Assembly: GCF_000015585.1 (NCBI RefSeq)
Contig: NC_008789.1
Span: forward strand, 210,001 to 242,000
Direction of reading: 5' to 3'
From: Halorhodospira halophila SL1
Lineage (GTDB): Bacteria > Pseudomonadota > Gammaproteobacteria > Nitrococcales > Halorhodospiraceae
Length of the DNA stretch: 32,000 nucleotides
Under the pieces are notes generated by a model, which was not told the origin of the DNA, did not search any database, and saw only the letters and a program-made list of their open reading frames with translations. Position numbers and translations under genes: made by a program. Below, in pieces: positions 15,615-32,000 of the stretch (positions are counted from its first letter, which is position 1; the number at the start of each line of letters is the position of its first letter).

Positions 15615-15827
15615 GAGGACTCCCGTGTTGTCGTTTGCCTGTCCTTGCGCGGCAAGTATCGTTCCAGCACACGATTCACCGACCCGTCTGGGCAAAGCCC
15701 CACCGTTACGGCGCTTGCGCACAATCGTTGTGCATCGATCAAACCCCACGGCACATCTGTGGTGCAGACAGGGACGGCGGGATCCGCGGAAACACACTCA
15801 ATTGAGGAGACACGCGCCTCGAAAGCG

Positions 15828-15842
15828 GGCACGGTTCCTGCT
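15828..15842 (+). promoter_or_regulatory. Candidate sigma-54 (-24/-12) promoter upstream of the EAL gene
   Basis: GGCACG-gttc-CTGCT matches the TGGCACG-N4-TTGCW consensus with correct GG/GC spacing. It lies about 70 nt upstream of the ATG at 15912. Confidence 0.35.
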
Positions 15843-15911
15843 TATCTGACCAGCAGCTCGGCCCCATCGCGGACGGGCAGGACGAACGACGCAACTGAAT
15901 AAAGGACGTCT

Positions 15912-17201
15912 ATGCCTCGCCCTTCGGATCAATGGTTCGATTACCGCCTCGAAAGCGCCTTCCAGCCGATCCTCAGCCTCAGCCACCGCCGCATTGTCGG
16001 CTACGAGGCCCTGCTACGCGGCAGATGCTCGACCACCGGGGCGCTGCTCCCTCCTGCCCGGGTCTTTGAGGCGGCCAACACACTCGAGCATCTGCACCAG
16101 CTCGAGCAACAGAGCCAGGCTGTGCATATCGCCAACTTCCAACGGTGCGGCGACCCCGAAGCGCCGCCGAAGTGGCTGTTCCTGAACGTCAGCCCGGAGA
16201 CCGTCGCCGACAACGCCTATCGTGACCTACTGCCGGAGGCACTCCGCTTCGGGGGGGTGCGGCAGCACCAGATCGTCGTGGAGTTGCTCGAAACCCCCGG
16301 CAACGAGACCACCCTGGCCGAGGCGGTGGATTACTTCCGGGGCCTGGGCTGCCTGGTCGCCCTCGACGACTTCGGCACCGGCTACTCGAATTTTGAACGC
16401 CTGTGGGCGCTTGAGCCCGATCTGGTCAAACTGGATCGCTCACTGATCCAGGGCGCCGCAGAGGCGCTCAACAGCAAACGCCGCATCCTCAGCAACCTGG
16501 TTGCCTTGATCCACGAGGCCGGGAGTCTGGTGGTCCTCGAGGGGGTCGAGAGCGAAGAGCAAGCGATGATCGCCCTGGATGCCGATATCGACCTGGTCCA
16601 GGGATTTTACTTCGCGCTGCCGACTCTGGACTCCCATGCTCCGGCGGAGCGCGGCCTGGCGCAGGTGCATCAGGTGACCGAACGCTTCACCGAGGAGACC
16701 CTTACCGCAGTCAACCGGGAGCAAATCACCCTGCAACCGTACGAGCAGACCTTCCTGCGGGCGGCAACCCGGCTGGACCGGGGCCATGGTCTGCGCGAGA
16801 GTTGTGCCGATCTCATGGCCCTGCGGGGCGTTCAGCGCTGCTTCGTCCTCAATCAACGCGGTGAACAAGTCGGGGAACACCTGCTGCCCGCCGGGCTGAA
16901 AGCCGATGCCCCGGTGACGACCGACCCCCGCCACGCTCCGCTCGTGGACACCCGTGGCGGCACTTGGTCGAGGCGACCGTACTTCCGCGATGCCCTGCTC
17001 GCCCCCCGGCGGCTGAAGATCTCTCGCCCCTACTTGTCCAGCACGGGCCGACACGTCTGCATCACCCTCTCGATCGCCACGCGCTCCCACGACGACGGCC
17101 ATTACTACGTGCTCTGCTGCGACGTCGCATGGTACCCGGGCGGCGCCCCCGAAAAAGCGCCTTGCGAAGGAACCTCCCGGGCCGCAGCGCCGAGTCCGTG
17201 A
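15912..17201 (+). CDS. EAL-domain c-di-GMP phosphodiesterase with C-terminal PAS/Cache-like (YkuI_C-type) domain
   Basis: The full set of EAL catalytic motifs is present: YEALLRG, FLNVS, VVELLE, ALDDFGTGYSNFERL, VKLDRSLI, VLEGVESEEQ, QGFYFALP. The C-terminal domain reads FVLNQRGEQV...GTWSRRPYFRDAL...ISRPYLSSTGRHVCITLS. Confidence 0.9.
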   Translation: MPRPSDQWFDYRLESAFQPILSLSHRRIVGYEALLRGRCSTTGALLPPARVFEAANTLEHLHQLEQQSQAVHIANFQRCGDPEAPPKWLFLNVSPETVADNAYRDLLPEALRFGGVRQHQIVVELLETPGNETTLAEAVDYFRGLGCLVALDDFGTGYSNFERLWALEPDLVKLDRSLIQGAAEALNSKRRILSNLVALIHEAGSLVVLEGVESEEQAMIALDADIDLVQGFYFALPTLDSHAPAERGLAQVHQVTERFTEETLTAVNREQITLQPYEQTFLRAATRLDRGHGLRESCADLMALRGVQRCFVLNQRGEQVGEHLLPAGLKADAPVTTDPRHAPLVDTRGGTWSRRPYFRDALLAPRRLKISRPYLSSTGRHVCITLSIATRSHDDGHYYVLCCDVAWYPGGAPEKAPCEGTSRAAAPSP

Positions 17202-17238
17202 TCCCCCTCGGGTGCGAGTCTTCCACTCGTTCCCACGA

Positions 17239-18087
17239 TCATCGCCGCGCCACCCGAGGCCCTTGGTGGTCGGTACCGGAGCCCAACGGATGCTCGCTGT
17301 CGGCCTTTTCAGCCTTGCGCTCCTGCAGGCGCTGATACCAGAGGCTGTCGCGGTGGCTGTCCACCTCCAGCTGCTGGCGCAGTTGCTCCACGAGTTGACT
17401 CGTCTCGTCGGACAACGTGCCGTAGCGCTCCTGCCACTGCTCCAGTGTCTCGCGGAAACGGCCGTAGGCCTCCAGCGGGTCGCTGGGCCGCTCGGCCGTC
17501 TGCTCATCGACCCGCTCGGCCTGGGCGCGGGCGCTCGCCGTAAGCGCCCCGCCGCTCTGGCGGTCGGCATAATCCACCAACAACGCCGCCTCGCGCCGGC
17601 GCAGGGGGCGCCCCTGTTCGACCACCCGCTCGCGATAGACCCGACACGGCCGGCTGTGCAGGCACGCCTCGCGGACCCCGAGCAGATCCTGCGCACGATC
17701 CGCCAGCTCATCCCGCTCGGCCTCCAGTTTGCGCAGTTCCTGGCCCCGGGCCAACGTCCAGGCGGCGAACGCCAGCCCGCCGGCCAGCACGCCAACGGCC
17801 AGCGCCCCCCAGGCGAGCACCGGCACGCCCGGCGGTGCCAACCACGCCGCGAAGACGATCCCCAGGAGCACCAACGGCACGGCGATCAGGGCGGCGCGGG
17901 CCTGACGCTCCAGAGGCTGATGCTCGGGCTCACGGTCCGAGGCGAGACGACGGAAGGTATCCAGCAGGGTCCGGTCCCGCACCCGGGCCAGGAACCGATT
18001 CATGTCGTGGAGTTCGGGCGGGGTAGCCCGCTCGATGAGTTCGTCGTGGAAGAGCTGCGGCGGTTTTCGAGGCACCCGGACCTCCAC
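17239..18087 (-). CDS. Hypothetical 2-TM membrane protein with long charged/coiled-coil C-terminal region
   Basis: GTG start with GGAG 8 nt upstream. Two adjacent TM helices (ALIAVPLVLLGIVFAAWL, LAWGALAVGVLAGGLAFAAW) are followed by an E/R/L/Q-rich helical region. Of the three overlapping ORFs here it has the most protein-like composition. I recognise no family. Confidence 0.6.
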   Translation of the reverse strand: MEVRVPRKPPQLFHDELIERATPPELHDMNRFLARVRDRTLLDTFRRLASDREPEHQPLERQARAALIAVPLVLLGIVFAAWLAPPGVPVLAWGALAVGVLAGGLAFAAWTLARGQELRKLEAERDELADRAQDLLGVREACLHSRPCRVYRERVVEQGRPLRRREAALLVDYADRQSGGALTASARAQAERVDEQTAERPSDPLEAYGRFRETLEQWQERYGTLSDETSQLVEQLRQQLEVDSHRDSLWYQRLQERKAEKADSEHPLGSGTDHQGPRVARR

Positions 18088-18159
18088 GGCACAGGCTCCG
18101 CCCCGGATCGGCGGGTACCGATGGATCCCCGGGCGGGAGAGAGGGATCCCCCAAGGTCA

Positions 18160-18193
18160 CCGGCGCCGGTTCAGCGCTCCGAACCCGCGCCGG
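18160..18193 (-). other. GC-rich stem-loop between the small acidic ORF and the 2-TM gene
   Basis: CCGGCGCCGGTTC-(8 nt)-GAACCCGCGCCGG forms a 13-bp stem with one mismatch. There is no U-tract, so it is not a classical terminator. Confidence 0.3.
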
Positions 18194-18208
18194 ATCACCG
18201 TTGGGAGG

Positions 18209-18370
18209 CTACTCGGCGGTGCGCTCCGCCTCGGTGGCGTCCTCACCGCGGGCGTGCTCGGCGTTCTGCCCCTCCGCCTGCACGACCTCGGCGGACTCGT
18301 CTTGATCCTCGGTCCGGCGATTGACCTCGCGGACGTAGTTGCGCTGCGCATTGACCATGCATCCGAACAT
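18209..18370 (-). CDS. Small highly acidic hypothetical protein (53 aa)
   Basis: The ATG at 18370 follows AGGGGATAGG. About 90% of third codon positions are G/C. The product is MFGCMVNAQRNYVREVNRRTEDQDESAEVVQAEGQNAEHARGEDATEAERTAE. It lies upstream of, and on the same strand as, the 2-TM gene. Confidence 0.45.
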   Translation of the reverse strand: MFGCMVNAQRNYVREVNRRTEDQDESAEVVQAEGQNAEHARGEDATEAERTAE

Positions 18371-21874: not shown

Positions 21875-21902
21875 TTGACGCATAAATGGGAATCGTTACT
21901 AT
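21875..21902 (+). promoter_or_regulatory. Candidate sigma-70 promoter for the ABC transporter operon
   Basis: -35 TTGACG, a 16-bp spacer and -10 TACTAT. It lies about 36 nt upstream of the ATG at 21938. Confidence 0.35.
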
Positions 21903-21937
21903 CCGCACTATTGTTCTATCCCTACATGGAGTGTTCG

Positions 21938-22915
21938 ATGAAACGCCTCGCACTCTTCTTCGCCGGCCTGCTCGGACTCCCGATGGTCGCCACCGGCACC
22001 CCGGCCACCGACTCGCAAGAGATCCGGGTTGGCCTGCCCCCCGATCCGAATGCGGTACCGCTGTTCATCCTTGAGCAGCGCCAGGACGATCTGCTCCCCG
22101 ACTTCGAGCTCGAACTCGTCCGCAACCCCGCGGGCGATCCGTCGGCGATGCGCGCCATGGTGCAGGACGGCCGCATCGATTTCGCCTTCTTCAACCTCAT
22201 CGGCGGCGTCCGCTTCGTCGAGGGCGGCCTCGAACAGCTTGAGCTCGTGGCCCCGTGGGTCTGGCAGGGCATCTACCTGCTCACCCCGGCGGATCGCAGC
22301 GAGCCTGAGAAAGCGGACGGCCGCCAGGTCTTCGCGGCTCCCGGCGTCTCAACACCGCCCCATGTGGTTACCGAACGGGCCCTTGGCGCACGGGGCATCG
22401 AACCGGAGTTCGCCAGCACCGGGGCCGGCATGGCGCTGCTGGCCCAGGCCCGTCACCCACAGCGCGCCCCCGCAGGCATTGCCGCCCCAGAGCCGCTGGT
22501 CAGCCTGATCCTGCACCGCCAGGAGGCTGAAGATTGGGAGCAACAGTGGGCCATCGGCCTCGATCCCGCCGAGGATCTGGAGGATCAGCTCGACGTTCGC
22601 GTGCCGCTGGGTGCCATCTGGTCCGTCGGGGATCAGGCGAACCAAGAACAGCGGGAGGCCCTGATGGACGGTGTGGAAGCGGCGACCGCCTGGCTGACGG
22701 ACCCCGAGAACCAGGAAGAGGCTGCCGAGATGGCCGCCCAGCGCTTCGATACCTTCTTCGATATGCCTATCCCGGAGGCGGCACTGTTGCGCATGCTCCG
22801 TACCGAGCGCGTGACGTGGGAGCCAGCCGACGATCAACCAACCCGTAAGGCCGTCGATACCTACCTCCGCGAGGTATTCGACATCGAGCCACCCGATGGG
22901 GTGCTGTCACAATGA
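21938..22915 (+). CDS. ABC transporter periplasmic substrate-binding protein (NitT/TauT, NMT1/SsuA-like)
   Basis: The internal ATG at 21938 gives MKRLALFFAGLLGLPMVATG, a signal peptide. Its position ahead of the cognate permease and ATPase supports the call. The family assignment rests on size and context and is moderate. Confidence 0.75.
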   Translation: MKRLALFFAGLLGLPMVATGTPATDSQEIRVGLPPDPNAVPLFILEQRQDDLLPDFELELVRNPAGDPSAMRAMVQDGRIDFAFFNLIGGVRFVEGGLEQLELVAPWVWQGIYLLTPADRSEPEKADGRQVFAAPGVSTPPHVVTERALGARGIEPEFASTGAGMALLAQARHPQRAPAGIAAPEPLVSLILHRQEAEDWEQQWAIGLDPAEDLEDQLDVRVPLGAIWSVGDQANQEQREALMDGVEAATAWLTDPENQEEAAEMAAQRFDTFFDMPIPEAALLRMLRTERVTWEPADDQPTRKAVDTYLREVFDIEPPDGVLSQ

Positions 22916-23673
22916 GCCGGCGGCGCGTCTGGTCCAGCTGGCCGCCGTGGGCTGGACTGCTCGGTGTCGTCGCCCTATGGATGGCCGCCGCCCACCAGGT
23001 TCCGGACTCCATCCTGCCGGACCCCTGGGTGGTCACCCTGGAACTGGGTGGCACCCTCCACTCCGGCGACCACTGGGCGAACACCGGGGTCACCCTGCGC
23101 AATGTTGTGGTCAGCTTCTTGCTCTCGCTGCTTGGCGGCGTCGCATTGGGGCTCTGGGCGGCACGCTCACCTACCCTGCAAAGGGCCCTGCACCCGATCA
23201 TCGTCCTGATCGAGGCAGCCCCTCACATCGCCTGGCTGGTCCTCGCCGTCCTCTGGCTGGGCATCGGGGTCGGTCCGCCAGTGCTGGTGGGTGTCAGTAT
23301 GGCCCTGCCGCTGATCTACATGGCCACCAGCCACGGGATCGCGCAGATCGATCGGGGCATCATGGACATGGCCCACATCTATCAGCTCGGCTGGTACAAG
23401 CGCCTGACCCACATCCTGCTCCCGCACCTGGCGCTGACCCTCGCCGGAGCCGCGTCGGGGGCGTTATCGGTCAGCTGGCGTGCCGTGATCATGGCCGAGG
23501 CCTTCGCCAGCGATGCGGGTCTGGGGCAGTCCCTCTGGGGCAGCTACCTCTACGGCGAGGTCACAGCCGTGTACGCCCAAGTCCTGTGGATTGTGCTCCT
23601 CGGCCTAGCGCTGGAGTACCTGCTGATCCACCCCGGTCGACAACTCATCGAGCGACGCCTTCAACATGTCTGA
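22912..23673 (+). CDS. ABC transporter permease (NitT/TauT family)
   Basis: ATGA overlap with the SBP gene. It has 6 TM helices and an EAA-like loop (DMAHIYQLGWYKRLTHILLPHL). Confidence 0.88.
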   Translation: MSRRRVWSSWPPWAGLLGVVALWMAAAHQVPDSILPDPWVVTLELGGTLHSGDHWANTGVTLRNVVVSFLLSLLGGVALGLWAARSPTLQRALHPIIVLIEAAPHIAWLVLAVLWLGIGVGPPVLVGVSMALPLIYMATSHGIAQIDRGIMDMAHIYQLGWYKRLTHILLPHLALTLAGAASGALSVSWRAVIMAEAFASDAGLGQSLWGSYLYGEVTAVYAQVLWIVLLGLALEYLLIHPGRQLIERRLQHV

Positions 23674-24445
23674 CGGTACCCACCCCATGCAGCTCATGCA
23701 TCACGCCCCCCCATGCACGCACCAACCCGTGGTCGCCCTGGACGGCATCAGTCGCATCTTCGCGGGTGGCGGCGGGCTATCCCCGGTCGATCTGGCCGTC
23801 TCCCCCGGAGAGGTGGTCGGCGTCACCGGTGCCAGCGGCTGCGGCAAATCCACCCTCCTGCGCCTGATCGCCGGGCGCGAGACCGCGAGCAGCGGCGCCA
23901 TCGAACGGCATTACAGCCGCCTCGGCATGGTCTTCCAGGAACCCACCCTCCTGCCCTGGCTCACCGTCCAGGGGAATGTGGAACTGGTCCTGAGCCCATC
24001 CGAGCGACCGCGCGCGCGAGAGGCGCTGCATCACGTGGGACTCGAATCGGCAGCGAGCCAATACCCGGCGCAGCTCTCCGGCGGCATGCGGCAACGGGTT
24101 GGCATCGCCCGGGCGCTGGCCGGACACCCGGACCTGCTCCTGATGGACGAACCCTTCTCCAGCCTCGATTACATCAACCGGGCCGAGCTGCTTGAACTGG
24201 TGCGGGAACGGGTGCTGGGTGCCGGTGTGGCTGTGATCTTCGTCAGCCACGACGTCCGCGAGATCGTCCAGCTCTGCCACCGCATCCTGGTGATCGGCGG
24301 CACACCGGGGCGGGTTCAGGCCGAGCTACACCACCCGGCTCCGGCGCACGGCCCGCAACGCCGTCCCGGCGCCCTGGCGAACCTGGAGGAGCGCGTCCTC
24401 GCCGCTATCCGCGGCCATTCCGAAGCGAGATGTAGCTGCTCGTAA
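23666..24445 (+). CDS. ABC transporter ATP-binding protein (NitT/TauT family)
   Basis: It overlaps the permease stop. Walker A GASGCGKST, Q-loop FQEP, signature LSGGMRQRV and Walker B LLLMDEPFSSLD are present. Confidence 0.9.
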   Translation: MSDGTHPMQLMHHAPPCTHQPVVALDGISRIFAGGGGLSPVDLAVSPGEVVGVTGASGCGKSTLLRLIAGRETASSGAIERHYSRLGMVFQEPTLLPWLTVQGNVELVLSPSERPRAREALHHVGLESAASQYPAQLSGGMRQRVGIARALAGHPDLLLMDEPFSSLDYINRAELLELVRERVLGAGVAVIFVSHDVREIVQLCHRILVIGGTPGRVQAELHHPAPAHGPQRRPGALANLEERVLAAIRGHSEARCSCS

Positions 24446-24446
24446 T

Positions 24447-24536
24447 TGGCGGAGAGGGAGGGATTCGAACCCCCGGAGGGCGCATGCCCTCACCCGATTT
24501 CAAGTCGGGTGCTTTCGACCGCTCAGCCACCTCTCC
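24447..24536 (-). tRNA. tRNA-Ser (anticodon UGA), class II with long variable arm, CCA encoded
   Basis: The reverse complement folds as GGAGAGG acceptor / D-arm / CCCGA-CUUGAAA-UCGGG (anticodon UGA) / 18-nt variable arm / GGGGG-TTCGAAT-CCCTC / CCTCTCC-G-CCA. Confidence 0.95.
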
Positions 24537-24617: not shown

Positions 24618-25046
24618 TCACCGTTGATCCCCCGGGAGGGGGTACTGCATCTCCAGGGTGTTTCCGGCCGGGCCGGATCGATAGCGAACGTGCCACATCA
24701 GCCCGCGGATGATGCCGATCCCCCGCCCCCCTTCGGCGCAGTCCGCGCCGCTTCGCACGTCCACCGAAGCCGGCTCGGTGGTCATCGGCCACCCTTGGTC
24801 GTGCACCTGCAGCACCAGCCAGTCGGCCCGCTGGTGGACCGTCACGCGGACCACACGGCTCGGGCAGTTGCCGCAGGCGTGGATGATGGCGTTGTTGATC
24901 GCCTCGCACAGGGCCAACTCCACCGCCCCGGCGGCCTCCTCGCCCAGGCCGATCTGCTGGGCCAGCCGCTCCCACGCCCGGCACGCCTCGGCGACCCGAC
25001 GCAGCTCGGCGTTCAGCTCCAGCTCCAGGAGCGTGTTGGACTGCAC
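24618..25046 (-). CDS. Anti-sigma-factor-type serine protein kinase (RsbW/SpoIIAB, HATPase_c_2)
   Basis: GTG start 3 nt after the STAS stop. N-box LCEAINNAIIHA, G1 VHDQGWP and G2 GGRGIGIIRGLM are present. Confidence 0.85.
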   Translation of the reverse strand: MQSNTLLELELNAELRRVAEACRAWERLAQQIGLGEEAAGAVELALCEAINNAIIHACGNCPSRVVRVTVHQRADWLVLQVHDQGWPMTTEPASVDVRSGADCAEGGRGIGIIRGLMWHVRYRSGPAGNTLEMQYPLPGDQR

Positions 25047-25049
25047 CCC

Positions 25050-25394
25050 TCATTCCGCCAGGGCAGCGACGGCCTGCTCGGCGTCGGCGTACATGGGGAA
25101 AACGCGCTGATCGAGCCGGGTAACGCGAAACAACTGCACCACCTTGGGGGCGTGAACGCCGGCCAGGACCACGGAGCCTGCGGGGTCGATGTTCTTGCGC
25201 AGCGACAGCAGCGCGGAGAGGCCGCTGGAATCGATGAAGCTGACCCGGCTTAGGTCCACCACCATTCGCGTAACACCGAGATCCACTGCTTCCAGTGCGG
25301 CCCGTTTGAAGGCCGGCGCCTCGCTGGCGTCGAGGCGATCGACGTCCACCTGGAGGACAGCCACACCGTCCCGGTCCGCGCATGTATAGGCCAT
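25050..25394 (-). CDS. STAS-domain anti-sigma-factor antagonist (RsbV/SpoIIAA-like)
   Basis: The size (114 aa) fits. The phospho-serine motif FIDSSGLSALLSL is conserved. Confidence 0.88.
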   Translation of the reverse strand: MAYTCADRDGVAVLQVDVDRLDASEAPAFKRAALEAVDLGVTRMVVDLSRVSFIDSSGLSALLSLRKNIDPAGSVVLAGVHAPKVVQLFRVTRLDQRVFPMYADAEQAVAALAE

Positions 25395-25419: not shown

Positions 25420-26607
25420 CTAAGCCGTGCGCCCGGTCACCCTCAGGCACGCAAAGGTGATGTCGTCTTCCGGCGGTTGCTGACTGTGCTCTACCATCAT
25501 TCGCTGCACCCCGCGGATAACCCCATCACTCGGGCAACCGCGCCAGTCCCGCAGCACCACCTCCAACCGCGCGCTGGACAGGTGGGCGCCCACCGCATCC
25601 TCCAGGTCCACCAGGCCGTCCGTGTAGATGAACAGCAGGTCTCCTTCCGCAACCGCAACACGGCCCTCTTCATACCGGCCCCAGCCGCCGATGCCCACCG
25701 GCAATCCGCCCGCTTCCAATGGGATGCTTCCGCCGCGCTGTCGGATCAGCAGACCGGGCGGGTGACCCGCATTAGCGTAACGGATCTCTCGCGCGGCGGG
25801 ATCGTAGACGAGGACGATCAGGGTGAAAAACTTGTCGAACCGCTCCAGCGGATACTCCGCATCCAGGGCATCCAACAACGCCGCCGGTGATACCTGCCGG
25901 CGCTCGGCCACCCACTGGCGAATCGACTGCGCCACCGAGAATGACACCAGCGCCGCGGATACTCCGTGGCCACTGACGTCCAGCATATAGAGCACGAGCC
26001 GCCCATCTTCCAGCGGGATGGTAACGAAGAGATCCCCCCCGAGCCCTGCACTTGGCCGGTAGTACCAGTCCAACGCATACCCGGCCCCTGGCGGCGGCGC
26101 GGATGGCAGCAGGCTCTGCTGGATCCGCGACGCCACACGCAGGTCTTCCTCGATCCGCTGCTGCTGCGCTTCGAGCTGACGGTAATTGGCCGCCAGCAGG
26201 TCGGAGCGGACCTTAAGCTTGACGTGCGCCCCCACCCGGGCCCGCACCACGGCGCTGTTGAACGGCTTGGTGATGTAGTCCACCGCGCCGCGGGCCAGAC
26301 CATCGGCCTCATCCTCCCAGTCGCCCCGGGCGGAGATGAAGATGACCGGGACACCCCGCGTACGCGGCTCACCCTGCAGGGCATCGAGGACGTCGTACCC
26401 GCTGATCCCCGGCATGGTGATATCCAGCAGGACGAGGTCGGGCAGGCGCTCACGGGCGACGATATCCAGGGCCTGTTCACCACTCCGGGCGACCAGGACG
26501 CGGTAGGCATCGCCGAGCAACCGCCCGAGCAACTCCAGGTTGATCGGCTCATCGTCCACGACCAGGACGATGGGGCGACCGCTGACCTCGTCCGCGCTGG
26601 GATCCAT
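25420..26607 (-). CDS. Response-regulator receiver fused to PP2C (SpoIIE/RsbU-type) serine phosphatase
   Basis: REC motifs: VLVVDDEP, DLVLLDITMPGISG, PVIFISA, ITKP. PP2C motifs: GGDLF, MLDVSGHGVSAAL, YANAGHPP, IYTDGL. Confidence 0.9.
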   Translation of the reverse strand: MDPSADEVSGRPIVLVVDDEPINLELLGRLLGDAYRVLVARSGEQALDIVARERLPDLVLLDITMPGISGYDVLDALQGEPRTRGVPVIFISARGDWEDEADGLARGAVDYITKPFNSAVVRARVGAHVKLKVRSDLLAANYRQLEAQQQRIEEDLRVASRIQQSLLPSAPPPGAGYALDWYYRPSAGLGGDLFVTIPLEDGRLVLYMLDVSGHGVSAALVSFSVAQSIRQWVAERRQVSPAALLDALDAEYPLERFDKFFTLIVLVYDPAAREIRYANAGHPPGLLIRQRGGSIPLEAGGLPVGIGGWGRYEEGRVAVAEGDLLFIYTDGLVDLEDAVGAHLSSARLEVVLRDWRGCPSDGVIRGVQRMMVEHSQQPPEDDITFACLRVTGRTA

Positions 26608-26703
26608 GAAGCGCCCCTCCTCCGATCCGGACCTTGGCTTAGTCGGTTTCCTGGGCGGCCATGACTGTTACGATACAGATACACAGGACTTGGCGGGAAT
26701 GCC

Positions 26704-27741
26704 ATGCCGACACCGAGAAAGGGAATGGTCGGGCTGTTGCTGGCGGTCGTCATCGGCGTCAGCACCGCCATCTACCTCCGCATCCACCCCGATATCGTCC
26801 ACTTCCGGCTCGCCGAGTGGCTCGATCACCTCGACCGCGGCGCGGTGGCCACCGATCACCTTGAGCGCAGCATCGCGGCGGGGCTGGATCACCCGGACCG
26901 GCTGCGCGAGGCGACCCTCACCCTGCTCGGACGCGATGAGGCCGAGCCGGCCTTCGTCGGCGCATGGCGCCTGAATCAGAGCGACGCCCTGGACCCCGGG
27001 ACACGCTCGGCCTTCGCCGGACACTTCGATCGCCTCGGCCAACCCGAACGTGCCCTGGCGCTTTACGAGTCGAACGACGGACTCGGCCCCGCCGGGATCA
27101 TGCACCACGCCTCGCTACTGGACCGCGCCGGACAGCCCGAAGCCGCCATGACACGCTATCGGGAACTGCTCCGGGAGCTGCCCGCGGAGCGGGTCGACAC
27201 GGGCCAGAGCACGAAACCGGAAGACCTGGCAGACCCCGAAACCACCCAGGCCCGGCTGGAACTGGCCCGCCTGCTGGCCGAGCGCGGGCGGCACGACGAA
27301 GCGATCACCGAGTACCGGAGGGTCCTCGACGACCAACCGGAACATCAGACCGCCCGGCTCGGCCTGGCCCGCACCCTCTTCTGGGCCGGCGACACCGAAC
27401 GGGCCGCTGCCGAGATCGACGGCCTCGAGACCACCGACCTGGAGCCGCAGGACCGGCTCATGCTGGCCGACCTGCAGCTCAGCCGTGGCGGCTACGAAAG
27501 GGCCATCGACCTCTACCGGGATTATCTGGAGGGCCACCCGGACGACCAGGAGACCCGGTACAAGAAGGCGCTGGCCCTGGCCTGGTCGGCCCGTTACGAC
27601 GCCGCCATCGAGGCCTTTGACCAGGTTCTCCAGGCTCGACCACACGACCGGCAGCTGATGCGCCAGTTCGCTCAGGTTCTGACCTGGGCCGATCAACCCG
27701 ACCGCGCCATCGAGCTCCTGCAGAAAAGCCTGGAGGACTAG
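26704..27741 (+). CDS. Membrane-anchored TPR-repeat protein
   Basis: An N-terminal TM helix (MVGLLLAVVIGVSTAIYL) is followed by repeated 34-aa-like A/L/R/E-rich units (e.g. ARLELARLLAERGRHDEAITEYRRVLDDQPEH). Confidence 0.75.
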   Translation: MPTPRKGMVGLLLAVVIGVSTAIYLRIHPDIVHFRLAEWLDHLDRGAVATDHLERSIAAGLDHPDRLREATLTLLGRDEAEPAFVGAWRLNQSDALDPGTRSAFAGHFDRLGQPERALALYESNDGLGPAGIMHHASLLDRAGQPEAAMTRYRELLRELPAERVDTGQSTKPEDLADPETTQARLELARLLAERGRHDEAITEYRRVLDDQPEHQTARLGLARTLFWAGDTERAAAEIDGLETTDLEPQDRLMLADLQLSRGGYERAIDLYRDYLEGHPDDQETRYKKALALAWSARYDAAIEAFDQVLQARPHDRQLMRQFAQVLTWADQPDRAIELLQKSLED

Positions 27742-27742
27742 T

Positions 27743-30154
27743 TTGGGGGGTGCCACGCAACGGATGGCCATCGGCATCGCCGCCGGCGCAGTGCTACTCG
27801 CCGGCGTCATGCCCCTAAGACAAGCCGCGGCGCAACCGCCGCCGATCCCCCCTGCGGAGGGGAGCCTGGTGGCTGCGCACGAGTACATCAGCGACCGGGG
27901 CGCCCGCCACCAGCTGGCCCGGTTGCTCTCCTATCAGCCACAGCGGCGCGCCGAGGCCCTGTGGCACTACCGGCGGCTTCTGGAGGACACACCGCACGAC
28001 CCCGCGCTGGTCACCGAGACCGCCGAGGTGCTCCAGTGGATGGGCGAGGAGGCAGCCGCCGTCGACCTGCTGACCTCCCTGCCCGCGGGCACTGAGCAAA
28101 CGCGCGCGGGCCTGCTCTTGCAAGCCCGGGTGGAACGCTCGCTGGGGCGGGCCGGCCGCGCCCGAGCCATTCTCGAGGGGCTGCGCCCCCTCGAGGGCCG
28201 CACCGAGCAGCTCCTCGACGCGGCAGCCCTCACCGACTCCGGCGCCCTCCACGGCGCCGAGGCTGTCGTCCGCGGGCTACTCGCCGAATCCCCCGACGAC
28301 CCCGGCCTCCGGCTGCAACTCGGCGATCTCCTTCAGGCCCAGGGCCGGATCTACGCCGCCGAGCACCACTACGCCCGGCTGCTCGCCGACACCCCGGACC
28401 AGACACTGGCCGCGGAGCGCCTCCGGCGCCTGCCCCACCGTGGTCCGGCCGAGCCCGCCGACACCCCGGAACCGATCGCGCCCCAAGAGGCGCCGGCCGC
28501 ACCGCAGACCGCACGGGATCACCTGGCGACTGCGGAACAGGCCCTGCAGGGCGGCGACATCGCGTCGGCCGAGCAGGCCGTCCGCCGCGCCCTGGAACTC
28601 GAGCCGGAACTCACCCGTGCGGACTACCTGCTGGCGGAAGTGCTCATCGCCCGCAACGCCCTCGCCGAGGCCGAGGAGCAGCTCCAGCAGGTCGCCACGC
28701 GCTTCCCGGACGCCACCGAAGCCCGCCTGAACCTGGCGCGGCTGGCGTCCTGGCAGGGTGACTACGACCGCGCCCTGGACCACTACGACGCCCTCGCCGC
28801 TGAGCACCCGACGGACCCGACTTTCCCCTTGGAGGCGGCCCGGCTCGCCGGTTGGGCCGGGGAGCCCGACCAGGCGCGAGAGCGCTACGCAACGCTGCTG
28901 ACGCTTCTTCAGGCCGAGCCGCCCGCCGCGACCAGCACCCCGGGGCCACTTACCGCCGCGCCCCCCGGGCCGGCACTGCCAACACCGACGGACCCGGCCT
29001 ACCCCGCCGCCGCCGAACACCGCGCCGTCCACCAGGAGGCCCGGGCCAAGGCTCTGGTCCACGACCGCCATCCCCGGACCGCCCTGACGGTGCTCCAGCG
29101 CGCCGCAGAGTTCCAGCCCCACAATCTCGAGACGGCCTTCGACCAGGCCCAGATCGAGTGCACCCTGGGGCTGTGCGGCGCCGAACAGGCCACCTATGAG
29201 CGGGTTCTGGACGCCGTCCCCAACCACCCCCAGGCTGCACGCCAGCAGGCCCTGCTCAAACGCCAGCGGGGTCCTCGGGCCGGTCTCCACGCCGACTACC
29301 GCAACGAGTCCGGGCGTGATGCCGAGATGGAAACCATCGGCTATGGGGTCCACGGCAGCCTGCCCGTGGCCACACGCGCCCGGGGCCACGTCTCAGTGGA
29401 CCGGTGGCGCTACCGGTTCGACCCGGACCCCGACGAGGACATCGACGAGGCCCGGGGCAACCGGGTGCACGGCACCCTCAGCGGGGTGGCCAGTACCCAA
29501 CTGCGCTGGCGGACCGAACTCGCCTACACCCGCTTCGACGACCCCGACGTCAAGGACTCGATTGAGGGTCGAGCCGAGATGGATTACCACGTGAGTGATC
29601 GCTTACGGACCCGGGGCGGGATCGCCCAGGAGCGGGTCCTGCGTAACCCCAAGACCGCCAGCGAGCGCATCAATCGGCGCCTCGCCGAGGCCGAGCTGGA
29701 CTACTACGCCGACCGCCGCGTGGATCTGGGCGCCACGGCGCGCACCGCCCACTACTCCGACGGCAACCGCGGCCTCCTCCTGCAGTTCCAGCCGCAGGTG
29801 CGGGTGACCGAGCACCCGCGCCAGCTGACCGCCGGCGCCACCTTCCAGTACCGCGATACGCAAGACGAAGAGGACCTGTACTGGACGCCCCAGGACTACC
29901 TCGCCGCCGGCCCGTTCCTGGAGTGGCATCACGACCTGGCGCGGGTTTTCGGGTGCCGGGCGCTCGACCATTACTACCGGGTCCGCCTCTCGGCATACCG
30001 GGACAGCGAGCACAACACCGGCACCCGCCTGGCAGCCGCCTACGCCTGGGACGCCGGCGACCATCTGCGGTTATCCGCCGACGCCTTCATCGAACGATCC
30101 AGTGAGTGGGACGCCGAGGGCCTCCACGTGAACGCCACCTGGCATTTCCACTGA
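27743..30154 (+). CDS. Outer-membrane exopolysaccharide export protein candidate: N-terminal TPR array + C-terminal beta-barrel (PgaA/BcsC-like architecture)
   Basis: TTG start 5 nt after GGAGGA (alternative ATG at 27764). It has a signal-like N-terminus AIGIAAGAVLLAGVMPLRQAAA and about 480 aa of TPR-like repeats. The last roughly 290 aa show alternating hydrophobic/polar beta-strand patterning and end in ..NATWHF (terminal Phe). Confidence 0.75.
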   Translation: MGGATQRMAIGIAAGAVLLAGVMPLRQAAAQPPPIPPAEGSLVAAHEYISDRGARHQLARLLSYQPQRRAEALWHYRRLLEDTPHDPALVTETAEVLQWMGEEAAAVDLLTSLPAGTEQTRAGLLLQARVERSLGRAGRARAILEGLRPLEGRTEQLLDAAALTDSGALHGAEAVVRGLLAESPDDPGLRLQLGDLLQAQGRIYAAEHHYARLLADTPDQTLAAERLRRLPHRGPAEPADTPEPIAPQEAPAAPQTARDHLATAEQALQGGDIASAEQAVRRALELEPELTRADYLLAEVLIARNALAEAEEQLQQVATRFPDATEARLNLARLASWQGDYDRALDHYDALAAEHPTDPTFPLEAARLAGWAGEPDQARERYATLLTLLQAEPPAATSTPGPLTAAPPGPALPTPTDPAYPAAAEHRAVHQEARAKALVHDRHPRTALTVLQRAAEFQPHNLETAFDQAQIECTLGLCGAEQATYERVLDAVPNHPQAARQQALLKRQRGPRAGLHADYRNESGRDAEMETIGYGVHGSLPVATRARGHVSVDRWRYRFDPDPDEDIDEARGNRVHGTLSGVASTQLRWRTELAYTRFDDPDVKDSIEGRAEMDYHVSDRLRTRGGIAQERVLRNPKTASERINRRLAEAELDYYADRRVDLGATARTAHYSDGNRGLLLQFQPQVRVTEHPRQLTAGATFQYRDTQDEEDLYWTPQDYLAAGPFLEWHHDLARVFGCRALDHYYRVRLSAYRDSEHNTGTRLAAAYAWDAGDHLRLSADAFIERSSEWDAEGLHVNATWHFH

Positions 30155-30198
30155 CCACGCGCCCCGCCTGCAGCGCCAACGGCCGGAGTCGAGAGCCC

Positions 30199-31893
30199 AT
30201 GGGTCAACGCCGCTTCCTGAACCGCAGCCTGCTGATCATCCTCACCGGCGCCGCCATCCTCAGCGTCTTCACCTACCTGATCGGTCGGACGGCGCTGTTC
30301 CTGTTCGCCGACTACCTGTGGTACGAGAAGACCGCGGCCGCATTCCTGCTACTCGCCGAGGCGTTCATCATGGTCCACGCCCTCGGCTACTTCCTGAACA
30401 TCTACCACGCCAATCGCACCCGGCCCGTGGACCCCGCAGCGCCCACCGCCGAACGCGAGATCCCCTCCGCCACGGCACCGCGCTTTTCCTACGAGCAGGC
30501 CCTGAAGATCCTCCCGACGGAAAACCCGCCAGAACTCGCGGTGGTCGTGGCCGCACACAACGAGCCCCTGTGGCTGATTGAAGAGACCCTGACCTGCTTC
30601 TACAACCTGACCTACCCCAACAAGCGGATCTTCCTGCTCGACGATACCCGCTACGACCCATCGGAACAGCGCTCCGCGGAGATGGCCAAGTACCGCCAGG
30701 CGATCGAGGACCTGTGCCAGGGCATCGGCGTCCACCTCTTCCGGCGCCCCTGGCGCGGGGCCAAGGCCGGCATGATCAATGACTTCCTGGCCTTCCTCAA
30801 CGACCGCGCGCCAGCCGGCTTCGAGTTCACCCGCAGTCCGCTGGATGTCGAGCCCTTCAATATCGAATACGTGGCCGTCTTCGACGCCGATATGAACCCG
30901 TTGCCCGAATTCGCCGAACCGCTGATCGCCCAGCTCGAGAGCGAACCGAACCTGGCCTTCATCCAGACACCGCAGTACTACTCCAACTTCGAGACCAACC
31001 GGGTCGCGCGGGCCGCCGGCATGCAGCAGGCGATCTTCTACGAGTACATCTGCGAGGGGAAAAGCTCCCAGGACGCCATGTTCTGCTGCGGTACCAATGT
31101 CATCTTCCGCCGCGCAGCGCTGGAAGACGTCGGCGGCTTCGACGAGACCTCGGTCACCGAGGATTTTGCCACCTCGCTGCGCTTTCACGCACGCGGGTGG
31201 CGCTCCGCCTACATCAACCGGCTCAGTGCGTTCGGGCAGGGTCCGCAGGACCTGGGCGCCTACTTCAAGCAGCAATTCCGCTGGGCGCTGGGCACCGTGG
31301 GGCTGTTCCGCACGGTCCTCCAGGCCATGGTGCGCACGCCGCGCCAGCTTTCGCTGGCCAAGTGGTGGGAGTACTCCCTTTCCGGCACCCACTACTTCGT
31401 CGGCTGGGTGTTCCTGATCATGGTGCTCAGCCCGACCCTCTACCTCCTGCTGGGCGTGCCGAGCTTCTTCGCCCGGGCGGATATCTACCTGCTGTTCTTC
31501 TTCCCCTACATCCTGCTGACGATCACCCTGTTCGCCTTCGCTATGAGTCAGCGCAAGTATCGGCTGCGCGAGCTGGTCACCGGGATCGTCCTTCAGGCCA
31601 CGGCCTTCCCCGTCTATATCAAGGCCAGCCTGCTGGGCATTCTGGGGGTCCGGGGAAGCTTCACGGTCACCCCGAAGGCCGGTAGCAACGGGCTCCCCCT
31701 GCGCGCCCTGTGGCCCCACCTGGCACTGATCGTGCTGTGCACCGCGGCGATCACCTGGGGCGTACTGCGTGGCGTCTTTGAGCAGGAGCCGCTCTGGGCG
31801 CTGGTGGTCAACACCCTCTGGTGCAGCTACCACCTCACGCTGCTGCTGGCTGTCTTCTACTTTAATCATCAACCGCAGGAGCAGACGGCATGA
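30199..31893 (+). CDS. Processive family-2 glycosyltransferase, cellulose-synthase-like, without PilZ domain
   Basis: I chose the ATG at 30199. It has 2 N-terminal TM helices. GT-A motifs: VVVAAHNEP, FLLDDT, VFDADMNP, QTPQYY, FCCGTNVIFRR, TEDFATS, QQFRWALG (QxxRW). About 5 C-terminal TM helices follow, and the protein ends soon after the last one. Confidence 0.9.
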   Translation: MGQRRFLNRSLLIILTGAAILSVFTYLIGRTALFLFADYLWYEKTAAAFLLLAEAFIMVHALGYFLNIYHANRTRPVDPAAPTAEREIPSATAPRFSYEQALKILPTENPPELAVVVAAHNEPLWLIEETLTCFYNLTYPNKRIFLLDDTRYDPSEQRSAEMAKYRQAIEDLCQGIGVHLFRRPWRGAKAGMINDFLAFLNDRAPAGFEFTRSPLDVEPFNIEYVAVFDADMNPLPEFAEPLIAQLESEPNLAFIQTPQYYSNFETNRVARAAGMQQAIFYEYICEGKSSQDAMFCCGTNVIFRRAALEDVGGFDETSVTEDFATSLRFHARGWRSAYINRLSAFGQGPQDLGAYFKQQFRWALGTVGLFRTVLQAMVRTPRQLSLAKWWEYSLSGTHYFVGWVFLIMVLSPTLYLLLGVPSFFARADIYLLFFFPYILLTITLFAFAMSQRKYRLRELVTGIVLQATAFPVYIKASLLGILGVRGSFTVTPKAGSNGLPLRALWPHLALIVLCTAAITWGVLRGVFEQEPLWALVVNTLWCSYHLTLLLAVFYFNHQPQEQTA

Positions 31894-32000
31894 ACCACCG
31901 CCGACTGATCCGCTGGGCCGGCGGCGCCCTGATCTGCGCCCACGGACTGCTCCCCGCCGGACTCCCGGCGGGCAGCGCCCCGCCCCCCGCCGCACCCCCG
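31890..32000 (+). CDS. Start of a downstream gene (truncated by the window); signal-peptide-like, Pro-rich
   Basis: ATGA translational-coupling overlap with the GT2 stop. The product begins MNHRRLIRWAGGALICAHGLLPAGLPAGSAPPPAAPP. Only 37 codons are visible. Confidence 0.35.
   Translation, partial: MNHRRLIRWAGGALICAHGLLPAGLPAGSAPPPAAPP

What the first reader, a model, noticed from the sequence alone, without database searches (positions are those of the whole stretch)
26704..32000. Non-canonical synthase-dependent exopolysaccharide locus (TPR anchor + TPR/beta-barrel porin + PilZ-less cellulose-synthase-like GT2)
Seen in sequence: three tightly packed same-strand genes with gaps of 1 nt and 44 nt, plus a fourth gene coupled by an ATGA overlap. 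The 803-aa protein has a signal-like N-terminus and a long TPR array. Its roughly 290-aa C-terminal region has beta-strand periodicity and ends in Phe. The GT2 carries the full processive-synthase motif set (DxD FDADMNP, QTPQYY, TED, QQFRWALG) and flanking TM helices, but it ends right after the last TM helix. There is therefore no PilZ-type c-di-GMP receptor. Established knowledge: TPR+porin proteins (PgaA, BcsC, PelB, AlgK/AlgE) and QxxRW GT2 synthases (BcsA, PgaC, Alg8, CrdS) define synthase-dependent EPS secretion. Inference: the gene content and order match none of the pga (no PgaB deacetylase between porin and synthase), bcs (no BcsB or PilZ seen), pel or alg layouts. This may be an undescribed variant making an unknown polymer. 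The extra inner-membrane-anchored TPR protein is also unusual.
Basis: partly seen in the sequence, partly recalled or inferred. Interest (0 to 1): 0.72.

Follow-up and report, generated by a model that had tools for sequence, protein, structure and literature searches.

The report
Uncharacterised beta-glycan secretion operon, PilZ in trans
This Halorhodospira halophila locus belongs to a widespread, apparently unstudied type of exopolysaccharide synthesis-and-export system in which the cellulose-synthase-like enzyme has no c-di-GMP sensor of its own, because a separate PilZ protein is encoded two genes downstream, next to a lichenase-type GH26 hydrolase and a phosphorylation switch.

Summary
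The window (H. halophila SL1, Hhal_0206-0209) holds a membrane-anchored TPR protein, a TPR protein with a predicted 16-strand barrel, a 564-aa PilZ-less BcsA-like GT2, and the start of a fourth gene. An identical contig shows what lies past base 32000: gene 4 is a GH26 hydrolase, 39% identical to the C. thermocellum lichenase CtLic26A. Gene 5 is a 276-aa cytoplasmic PilZ protein with invariant RxxxR and DxSxxG motifs. The cassette (one or two TPR proteins, TPR-porin, GT2, GH26) recurs in at least 80 species representatives of Thermodesulfobacteriota, purple sulfur bacteria, Verrucomicrobiota and others. In 31 loci with full flanks, the PilZ protein and a STAS protein are each present in 27, usually with a PP2C phosphatase and often an anti-sigma-type kinase. 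In H. halophila these three genes lie divergently just upstream. My reading is a synthase-dependent system, probably for a beta-glucan and possibly a mixed-linkage one, gated by c-di-GMP in trans and by partner switching. I found no paper describing it. It is a new variant of a known kind, and the product and regulatory wiring are inferred.

The parts
24618..25046 (-). Anti-sigma-type serine kinase (HATPase_c_2, 142 aa), called 'W'. By position it should be Hhal_0203, but that tag was inferred by counting, not retrieved.
   Evidence: Pfam HATPase_c_2 E 5e-33. N-box and G-box residues are conserved in the family. Homologues lie next to the cassette in 16 of 31 loci with full flanks.
25050..25394 (-). 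STAS-domain protein (114 aa), called 'V', the phosphorylatable partner-switching component.
   Evidence: Pfam STAS E 3e-14. The DSSGL phospho-site motif is conserved. Present in 27 of 31 full-flank loci, and together with the PilZ protein in 26.
25420..26607 (-). Response-regulator receiver fused to a PP2C (SpoIIE) phosphatase (395 aa), called 'U'.
   Evidence: Pfam Response_reg E 9e-26 and SpoIIE E 5e-40. In other genomes the PP2C domain carries CHASE/PAS or other sensor domains. Present in 23 of 31 full-flank loci.
26608..26703 (.). 96-bp divergent intergenic region between the phosphatase operon and the polysaccharide operon; presumed promoter region.
   Evidence: Gene coordinates. No Rfam family, including any riboswitch, reaches its gathering score. 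The sigma-70 consensus scan found nothing across this region and the operon (window about 26398-34098), which says little at 68% G+C.
26704..27741 (+). Inner-membrane-anchored periplasmic TPR protein (345 aa, Hhal_0206).
   Evidence: Many TPR Pfam hits. One N-terminal hydrophobic helix at aa 7-25. Its two halves match the two separate small TPR proteins of other genomes: 34% identity (E 1e-9) and 46% identity (E 9e-45). It therefore corresponds to those two proteins joined in one gene.
27764..30154 (+). Outer-membrane export protein (796 aa; 803 aa from the TTG at 27743; Hhal_0207): signal peptide, TPR array, and a C-terminal 16-strand beta-barrel.
   Evidence: AlphaFold2 model with mean pLDDT 76: 24 helices at aa 45-501 and 16 strands at aa 505-795. 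Foldseek best hit is E. coli BcsC 9b8a (E 8e-13). The PgaA barrel 4y25 aligns with TM 0.71. Pfam PgaA_barrel scores 24.5 bits, just below its cut-off of 27. A family profile finds PgaA 4y25 as its only barrel hit in the PDB (E 0.0065).
30199..31893 (+). Processive family-2 glycosyltransferase (564 aa, Hhal_0208): a BcsA-like core with 6 TM helices and no PilZ domain.
   Evidence: Pfam Glyco_trans_2_3 and Cellulose_synt. NCBIfam CelA scores 214 bits against a cut-off of 699. Best PDB match is BcsA 5ej1/4hg6, E 7e-33. The DxD, QTPQYY, TED, QQFRW and FTVTPK motifs are present, with 2 N-terminal and 4 C-terminal TM helices. The family is 51-60% identical across phyla.
31890..32000 (+). Start of the GH26 glycoside hydrolase gene (351 aa, Hhal_0209). 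It continues to window-equivalent base 32945 on the identical contig L001. The fifth gene, the PilZ protein (276 aa, Hhal_0210), lies wholly outside the window at equivalent 32935-33765 (L001 12737-13567).
   Evidence: L001 is identical to the window over the 501 bases compared.

GH26: Pfam E 7.5e-13. Best PDB match is the CtLic26A lichenase 2bv9, E 4e-35, 39% identity over 225 aligned residues. Mannanases reach only E 7e-8. The catalytic HEMN and FET motifs are at least 90% conserved in 83 members.

PilZ protein: R12, R16, D43, S45 and G48 are invariant in 36 homologues. The model has pLDDT 83.6, and the best-ranked Foldseek hits are nearly all c-di-GMP-bound PilZ structures, although none is below E 0.001.

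Best explanation
The locus encodes a complete synthase-dependent exopolysaccharide secretion system of an operon type I could not find described.

Shown or predicted here:
- A 6-TM BcsA-like GT2 carries the full processive-synthase motif set and the gating-loop motif.
- An outer-membrane protein has a long TPR array and a 16-strand BcsC/PgaA-like barrel.
- An extra membrane-anchored TPR protein is present.
- A GH26 hydrolase of the lichenase branch keeps both catalytic glutamates. No hydrophobic N-terminal segment reached the hydropathy threshold used, so its periplasmic location is assumed by analogy, not shown.
- A soluble 276-aa protein has an N-terminal PilZ barrel with the canonical c-di-GMP-binding motifs and a conserved C-terminal helical bundle.

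Inferred mechanism:
1. The GT2 polymerises a beta-linked hexose from a nucleotide sugar and threads it through its own membrane channel. The sugar is most likely glucose. The product could be a mixed-linkage beta-1,3/1,4-glucan, judging by the hydrolase.
2. The TPR proteins bridge the periplasm to the barrel, which exports the chain.
3. The GH26 enzyme trims or clears polymer, as BcsZ, PelA and PslG do in their systems.
4. The PilZ protein binds c-di-GMP and activates the synthase in trans. This replaces the fused PilZ of BcsA and is functionally comparable to Alg44 or PssE.
5. A partner-switching module adds a second, phosphorylation-based input. A sensor-linked PP2C phosphatase and a kinase set the phosphorylation state of a STAS protein. 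The target is most likely the PilZ protein or the synthase.
For: - Gene content and extension beyond the window.
- GT2 homology to BcsA, motifs and topology.
- Barrel and TPR model with BcsC and PgaA as structural matches.
- GH26 on the lichenase branch with conserved catalytic residues. GH26 is known to contain separate mannanase, xylanase and lichenase branches (PMC6556568; PMC10470212).
- PilZ protein: a weak Pfam hit in H. halophila (18.8 bits), but the Thiocapsa orthologue passes the cut-off (31.3 bits). Motifs are invariant. The fold matches PilZ-c-di-GMP structures including Alg44 and BcsA. NCBI names it a PilZ domain-containing protein.
- Conserved neighbourhood: GH26 in 80 of the 85 loci analysed, and in 31 of 31 with full flanks. 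In those 31, PilZ is present in 27, STAS in 27, both in 26, PP2C in 23 and the kinase in 16. No other family is conserved.
- Reciprocal check: two PilZ-protein homologues sit in the same cassette.
- The PilZ family is small and uniform: 211 representative clusters among 1.84 billion proteins, nearly all 250-295 aa.
- STAS phospho-site and kinase motifs are conserved.
- Precedents for partner switching acting on polysaccharide synthesis: S. meliloti BgrU/W/V controls a diguanylate cyclase for mixed-linkage glucan, and Anabaena HenR acts on a STAS-glycosyltransferase.
Against: - Nothing here is experimental. The polymer, c-di-GMP binding and every protein-protein contact are inferred.
- The H. 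halophila PilZ domain scores below Pfam's cut-off.
- Canonical PilZ motifs do not guarantee binding. The R. ilealis synthase PilZ showed no c-di-GMP binding in vitro (PMC10374906).
- GH26 is mostly a mannanase family, and 39% identity to one characterised lichenase does not fix specificity.
- The kinase is missing from about half of the full-flank loci, and four of those 31 lack the PilZ protein within 10 kb.
- No fusion of the PilZ protein to the GT2 or to STAS was found. The one long family member has a coiled-coil N-terminus.
- The porin model rests on only 7 sequences, with pTM 0.60.
- BcsA needs BcsB for activity, and no equivalent protein is evident here.
Confidence: 0.75

Rival explanations
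1. It is simply a divergent cellulose (Bcs) system. The GT2 makes beta-1,4-glucan, the TPR-barrel protein is a BcsC orthologue, and the GH26 replaces BcsZ as the endoglucanase.
For: The GT2's best curated-family and PDB matches are cellulose synthases. The porin model's best structural match is BcsC. UniProt names the hydrolase 'Endoglucanase, family 26' and the GT2 'Cellulose synthase (UDP-forming)'.
Against: - The GT2 scores 214 bits against the 699-bit CelA cut-off and is about 26-31% identical to BcsA.
- No BcsB, which BcsA needs, and no fused PilZ are present, and no GH8 was detected.
- From my recollection of Taylor et al. 2005, not re-read here, the nearest characterised GH26, CtLic26A, does not cut beta-1,4-glucan homopolymers.
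Confidence: 0.15
2. The product is a beta-mannan or glucomannan. Most GH26 enzymes are beta-mannanases, and the GT2 would be a bacterial mannan synthase.
For: Pfam GH26 membership and weaker matches to many mannanases, E 7e-8 to 1e-5. The QQFRW form of the QxxRW motif resembles the plant CslA/CslC motif, but this rests on my memory and was not tested.
Against: The hydrolase matches the lichenase CtLic26A about 90 bits better than any mannanase (124 against 35 bits). In a published GH26 tree the lichenases form a branch separate from the mannanases.
Confidence: 0.12
3. The STAS/PP2C/kinase module is a neighbour with its own unrelated target, such as a sigma factor encoded elsewhere. Alternatively it acts only indirectly through a distant diguanylate cyclase, as in S. 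meliloti, and not on the PilZ protein or the synthase.
For: Partner-switching modules classically control sigma factors. In S. meliloti the target is the cyclase BgrR. The kinase is absent from about half of the full-flank loci. No direct evidence of contact exists.
Against: STAS is next to the cassette in 27 of 31 full-flank loci across several phyla. It appears in at least three different gene orders, often directly beside the PilZ gene. No sigma factor or cyclase is conserved nearby.
Confidence: 0.3

Closest known systems
Bacterial cellulose secretion system (BcsA, BcsB, BcsZ, BcsC)
   Same: - A processive GT2 with the D, DxD, TED, QxxRW and FxVTxK motifs and the equivalent of BcsA TM3-8.
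- An outer-membrane TPR protein with a 16-strand barrel, like BcsC.
- A hydrolase encoded in the operon.
- A PilZ-type c-di-GMP receptor.
   Different: - The PilZ is a separate soluble protein with an extra helical domain, not fused to the synthase.
- There is no BcsB.
- The hydrolase is GH26 of the lichenase branch, not GH8.
- There are one or two extra small membrane-anchored TPR proteins.
- The GT2 is only about 26-31% identical to BcsA and lacks its N-terminal TM pair.
- A partner-switching module is associated with the cassette.
PNAG system PgaABCD
   Same: PgaA-like architecture of the export protein, a TPR array followed by a 16-strand barrel (TM 0.71 to 4y25). The synthase is a GT2.
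   Different: No PgaB deacetylase/hydrolase or PgaD-like protein is conserved with the cassette. The GT2 scores 65 bits against the PgaC cut-off of 422. c-di-GMP would be sensed by a PilZ protein, not at a PgaC-PgaD interface.
Sinorhizobium meliloti mixed-linkage beta-glucan system (bgsBA with bgrUWV and the cyclase BgrR)
   Same: A PilZ-less BcsA-like GT2 controlled by c-di-GMP. A PP2C/kinase/STAS partner switch is linked to polymer production. A lichenase-type hydrolase here hints at the same class of polymer.
   Different: - Export there uses a membrane-fusion protein and TolC. Here it uses a TPR-barrel porin.
- BgsA binds c-di-GMP through its own C-terminal domain. This GT2 has no C-terminal domain, and a separate PilZ protein is present.
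- No diguanylate cyclase is conserved in this cassette.
- No GH26 is reported in the bgs papers read here.
Alginate Alg8/Alg44 and Listeria PssC/PssE
   Same: The c-di-GMP receptor is a polypeptide separate from the GT2 synthase and is encoded in the same operon.
   Different: Alg44 is membrane-anchored with a periplasmic fusion-protein-like domain. The protein here has no TM helix and carries a cytoplasmic helical bundle. The polymers, hydrolases or lyases, and export parts also differ.

Membership tests
Synthase-dependent exopolysaccharide secretion (general class) | Inner-membrane processive glycosyltransferase that also forms the translocation channel | tested here: met
   GT2 with the full motif set, 6 TM helices and homology to BcsA at E 7e-33. 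Activity was not tested.
Synthase-dependent exopolysaccharide secretion (general class) | Periplasmic TPR scaffold plus an outer-membrane beta-barrel porin | tested here: met
   Predicted 24-helix TPR array and 16-strand barrel. The best structural matches are BcsC and PgaA.
Synthase-dependent exopolysaccharide secretion (general class) | c-di-GMP receptor associated with the synthase | tested here: inconclusive
   A PilZ protein with invariant RxxxR and DxSxxG motifs is encoded in the operon. Neither ligand binding nor contact with the synthase could be tested.
Bcs cellulose system | BcsA orthologue with a C-terminal PilZ domain | tested here: not met
   The protein ends 11 residues after its last TM helix. 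It scores 214 bits on CelA (cut-off 699) and 138 bits on PRK11498 (cut-off 992).
Bcs cellulose system | BcsB co-polymerase subunit | tested here: not met
   No such gene lies in the operon. No further conserved family was found in the 85 loci analysed. The rest of the genome was not searched.
Bcs cellulose system | GH8 endoglucanase BcsZ | tested here: not met
   The operon's hydrolase is GH26.
Pga PNAG system | PgaC synthase, PgaB deacetylase and PgaD | tested here: not met
   PgaC model 64.8 bits against a cut-off of 422. No deacetylase or PgaD-like gene is conserved.
Pga PNAG system | PgaA export porin | tested here: inconclusive
   Pfam PgaA_barrel 24.5 bits against a cut-off of 27. NCBIfam PgaA models score far below their cut-offs. 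The structural match to 4y25 has TM 0.71.
S. meliloti Bgs mixed-linkage glucan system | BgsA with its own C-terminal c-di-GMP-binding domain, BgsB membrane-fusion protein and TolC | tested here: not met
   The GT2 has no C-terminal domain. No fusion protein is conserved in the cassette. At most about 31% identity to any plasmid-borne rhizobial GT2.
S. meliloti Bgs mixed-linkage glucan system | Product is a beta-1,3/1,4-glucan | not testable with these tools
   Only indirect evidence: the GH26 is 39% identical to the lichenase CtLic26A.
PilZ domain | RxxxR and (D/N)xSxxG motifs on a six-strand barrel | tested here: met
   R12, R16, D43, S45 and G48 are invariant. The model's N-terminal barrel matches the PilZ domains of YcgR, Alg44 and BcsA. 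Pfam gives 18.8 bits in H. halophila (below the cut-off of 22.5) and 31.3 bits in the Thiocapsa orthologue.
GH26, lichenase branch | Two catalytic glutamates on a (beta/alpha)8 barrel; closest to CtLic26A and not to mannanases or xylanases | tested here: met
   The HEMN and FET motifs align to the CtLic26A catalytic residues and are at least 90% conserved. E 4e-35 to CtLic26A against 7e-8 to mannanases, and no match to the beta-1,3-xylanase Xyl4 at E<=1. Substrate specificity was not tested.
Partner-switching system (RsbU/V/W type) | PP2C phosphatase, STAS protein with a phosphorylatable serine, and HATPase_c_2 kinase | tested here: met
   Pfam domains. The DSSGL motif and the kinase N and G boxes are conserved. 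The output partner is unknown.

The most novel reading that the evidence does not exclude
This is a widespread, uncharacterised class of synthase-dependent secretion system that makes a mixed-linkage beta-1,3/1,4-glucan in anaerobic sulfate reducers, purple sulfur bacteria and Verrucomicrobiota. Its synthase is switched on only when two signals coincide: c-di-GMP bound to a dedicated stand-alone PilZ-helical-bundle protein, and a dephosphorylated STAS protein that binds that PilZ protein directly. A PilZ adaptor would be a new kind of output for partner-switching systems.
Probability: 0.25. Interest if true: 0.78.

Novelty: new variant of a known kind. Interest (0 to 1): 0.6.

Why it matters
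Synthase-dependent systems (cellulose, PNAG, alginate, Pel) are the best-understood route to biofilm matrix polysaccharides. Each new type has revealed a new polymer or a new way of coupling c-di-GMP to synthesis. This cassette is conserved at 51-60% GT2 identity across several phyla that dominate sulfidic, anoxic and hypersaline sediments and mats. Matrix polymers matter there for aggregation, mat cohesion and corrosion biofilms, yet I found no study of it.

The system offers three testable questions:
- Do bacteria other than rhizobia and Romboutsia make mixed-linkage glucans?
- How does a detached PilZ protein gate a BcsA-like synthase that has no BcsB?
- How does a partner-switching module with no nearby sigma factor feed into polysaccharide synthesis?

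The GH26 enzyme could also serve as a matrix-degrading tool for these biofilms.

Tried and rejected
- Fusion proteins that would tie the PilZ protein to the synthase. The one long family member (P0294, 826 aa) has a coiled-coil N-terminus and no GT2 similarity.
- A c-di-GMP or other riboswitch. Rfam at gathering thresholds finds only a tRNA-Ser.
- Promoter and terminator scans over the operon. No promoter-like site was found, and terminator-like sites were no more frequent than in shuffles. This says little at this G+C content.
- Profile search of the barrel region against PDB sequences. It was dominated by the last TPR repeat. The only barrel hit was PgaA at E 0.0065, so I relied on the structure prediction.
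- Literature. Eight full-text searches covered GH26 with synthase-dependent or PilZ terms, the Hhal locus tags, the host taxa, the partner-switch terms, the Bgr gene names and CtLic26A. None found a description of this operon. The library lacks most subscription journals, so absence is not proof.
- Filing the system under bcs, pga or bgs. I considered each and rejected it on the defining features listed in the membership table.
- The long antisense ORFs in the region, such as 30349-31995 on the minus strand (548 aa). I treated them as high-G+C artefacts. Their relatives in other loci also lie antisense to the conserved genes.


Full report
**What is in the window**

- A 345-aa TPR protein at 26704-27741.
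- An 803-aa TPR protein at 27743-30154 from a TTG start. Databases use the ATG at 27764, giving 796 aa.
- A 564-aa GT2 at 30199-31893.
- A fourth gene starting at 31890 through an ATGA overlap.

Both TPR proteins give many TPR hits. The large one also has a near-threshold PgaA_barrel hit (24.5 bits, cut-off 27). The GT2 matches Glyco_trans_2_3 and Cellulose_synt. On the curated cellulose-synthase models it scores 214 bits against a cut-off of 699, and on PgaC 65 bits against 422.

The GT2 has two N-terminal and four C-terminal hydrophobic helices and an FTVTPK gating-loop motif. It ends 11 residues after its last helix, so it has no PilZ domain. The organism is Halorhodospira halophila SL1. 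The genes are Hhal_0206 to Hhal_0210.

**What lies beyond base 32000**

An exact-protein look-up found a contig (L001) identical to the window over the 501 bases compared, and it runs on past the window end.
- Gene 4 is a 351-aa GH26 hydrolase.
- Gene 5 overlaps it by 11 nt and is a 276-aa protein with no TM helix.
- A convergent pyrD follows.

**The hydrolase**

Its best solved relative by a wide margin is the GH26 module of C. thermocellum endoglucanase H, which is CtLic26A (E 4e-35, 124 bits, 39% identity over 225 aligned residues). Mannanases reach only E 7e-8, and the beta-1,3-xylanase Xyl4 does not appear at E<=1.

CtLic26A is a lichenase (the Taylor et al. 2005 title is cited). In a published GH26 tree, lichenases, xylanases and mannanases sit on separate branches (PMC6556568). 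The HEMN and FET motifs that align with the CtLic26A catalytic glutamates are at least 90% conserved in 83 family members.

**The fifth gene is a PilZ protein**

- In H. halophila the Pfam PilZ hit is sub-threshold (18.8 bits). The Thiocapsa orthologue passes (31.3 bits), and NCBI names the family PilZ domain-containing.
- In 36 homologues R12, R16, D43, S45 and G48 are invariant. These are the RxxxR and DxSxxG motifs.
- An AlphaFold2 model (pLDDT 83.6) has a beta-barrel at aa 26-127 and a helical bundle at aa 134-273.
- Its best-ranked Foldseek PDB matches are nearly all PilZ domains solved with c-di-GMP: YcgR, PA4608-type, MrkH, VCA0042, MotI, Alg44 and BcsA. E-values are modest (none below 0.001) and probabilities are 0.9-1.0.
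- The whole two-domain family is small and uniform: 211 representative clusters among 1.84 billion proteins, nearly all 250-295 aa.

The synthase is therefore PilZ-less, but the system is not.

**The export protein**

The model of the 796-aa protein rests on 7 sequences (pLDDT 76, pTM 0.60). It shows a disordered signal region, 24 helices at aa 45-501, and 16 strands at aa 505-795 with pLDDT mostly 80-94. Foldseek ranks E. coli BcsC first (E 8e-13) and aligns the PgaA barrel 4y25 with TM 0.71. The protein ends ...WHFH, so Phe is the penultimate residue, not the last.

**Conservation**

The GT2 has hundreds of relatives of 51-60% identity, all about 545 aa. A scan of one genome per species found 148 species representatives, of which 80 were fetched. 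They come from:
- Thermodesulfobacteriota, including Desulfovibrionales, Desulfobacterales, Syntrophales and Geobacter
- Ectothiorhodospiraceae and Thiocapsa
- Opitutaceae and other Verrucomicrobiota, and Kiritimatiellia
- Riflebacteria, Brocadiaceae and Neomarinimicrobiota

I built profiles from the H. halophila proteins and searched all ORFs of the 85 loci then held. Results:
- The order small TPR, small TPR, TPR-barrel, GT2, GH26 is essentially universal. GH26 is present in 80 of 85 loci, and most of the loci without it are cut off soon after the GT2.
- In the 31 loci with at least 9 kb upstream and 8 kb downstream: GH26 31, PilZ protein 27, STAS 27, both together 26, PP2C phosphatase 23, HATPase_c_2 kinase 16.
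- All-against-all clustering found no other conserved family. There is no BcsB, deacetylase, membrane-fusion protein, cyclase or sigma factor.
- The regulatory genes appear in at least three arrangements: PilZ-STAS upstream of the cassette; PilZ after GH26 followed by a convergent kinase-STAS-phosphatase; or phosphatase-STAS-kinase upstream with PilZ downstream on the other strand. Conservation in shuffled order argues for a functional link and against mere inheritance of order.
- Two PilZ-protein homologues looked up independently sit in the same cassette.
- The H. halophila 345-aa TPR protein corresponds to the two small TPR proteins of other genomes joined together.

**The upstream module in the window**

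The module lies divergently from the operon.
- 25420-26607: a receiver-PP2C phosphatase.
- 25050-25394: a STAS protein.
- 24618-25046: an anti-sigma-type kinase.

The STAS DSSGL phospho-site and the kinase N and G boxes are conserved in the family. In other genomes the PP2C domain carries CHASE, PAS or other sensor domains. This suggests different inputs feeding a common switch.

**How it most likely works**

The domain and fold assignments and the synteny are shown. The rest is inference.
1. The GT2 polymerises and translocates a beta-glycan.
2. The anchored TPR protein and the TPR array guide the chain to the barrel.
3. The GH26 trims or clears it.
4. The PilZ protein binds c-di-GMP and releases the synthase's gating loop in trans.
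5. The partner switch adds a phosphorylation-dependent input.

There are precedents. In S. meliloti the BgrU/BgrW/BgrV switch controls the cyclase BgrR and so mixed-linkage glucan synthesis by the PilZ-less BgsA. In Anabaena a PP2C and kinases control a STAS-bearing glycosyltransferase.

Because the hydrolase is of the lichenase type, I favour a glucan with mixed 1,3/1,4 linkages. I hold this at only about 0.4. Cellulose and mannan remain open.

**Caveats**

- Motifs do not prove c-di-GMP binding. The R. ilealis synthase PilZ showed none in vitro.
- The kinase is often absent from the cassette.
- No fusion links the PilZ protein to a partner.
- No riboswitch was found, and promoter scans were uninformative.

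**Comparison with known systems, and novelty**

The system works like the Bcs and Pga systems. It fails their defining features: a fused PilZ, BcsB and GH8 for Bcs, and PgaB, PgaC and PgaD for Pga. It shares logic with the S. meliloti Bgs/Bgr system but uses a different export route and receptor.

The GT2 is at most about 31% identical to any BcsA or rhizobial GT2 tested. Eight full-text searches, including the locus tags, found no description of this operon. The library is incomplete, so this is not proof.

I class it as a new variant of a known kind.

Noticed in passing
window 14592-18324 (+): A 429-aa EAL-domain protein (15912-17201; Pfam EAL E 8.6e-49) is tightly flanked by two ORFs of 436 and 370 aa with no Pfam or NCBIfam hit. 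It may be a c-di-GMP phosphodiesterase about 10 kb upstream of the polysaccharide locus. It is not conserved with the cassette elsewhere.
   Followed up: partly
window 24447-24536 (-): A tRNA-Ser (anticodon TGA) sits between an ABC-transporter operon (21875-24445) and the kinase-STAS-phosphatase operon. It marks the left edge of the regulatory module.
   Followed up: yes
P0294 (metagenomic protein, 826 aa): One member of the PilZ-helical-bundle family carries a roughly 560-aa N-terminal extension rich in coiled-coil-like Glu/Ala/Arg repeats. It has no Pfam hit and no similarity to the GT2.
   Followed up: partly
L063, L067, L077 (Opitutaceae and other Verrucomicrobiota loci): In these loci the HATPase_c_2 kinase homologue is about 590-600 aa, against about 145 aa elsewhere. 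This suggests a fusion with another domain, perhaps an HsbR-like phosphatase-kinase. Domains were not checked.
   Followed up: no
window 30349-31995 (-) and similar: Long antisense ORFs overlap the GT2, GH26 and TPR genes, up to 548 aa in the window. They recur in other loci only because the sense genes are conserved, so they look like high-G+C artefacts.
   Followed up: yes
window 8449-10656 (+): A 735-aa protein combines PepSY_TM, flavodoxin and an FNR-type NAD-binding domain. It lies next to an ABC ATPase with a TOBE domain (6722-8374) and an LCM-type methyltransferase (10661-11539). None of these relates to the finding.
   Followed up: no
window 30199-31893, GT2 residue motif KQQFRW: The QxxRW motif reads QQFRW. 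From memory, plant CslA/CslC mannan and glucan synthases have QQHRW. I could not compare sequences, so any link to that clade is untested.
   Followed up: no
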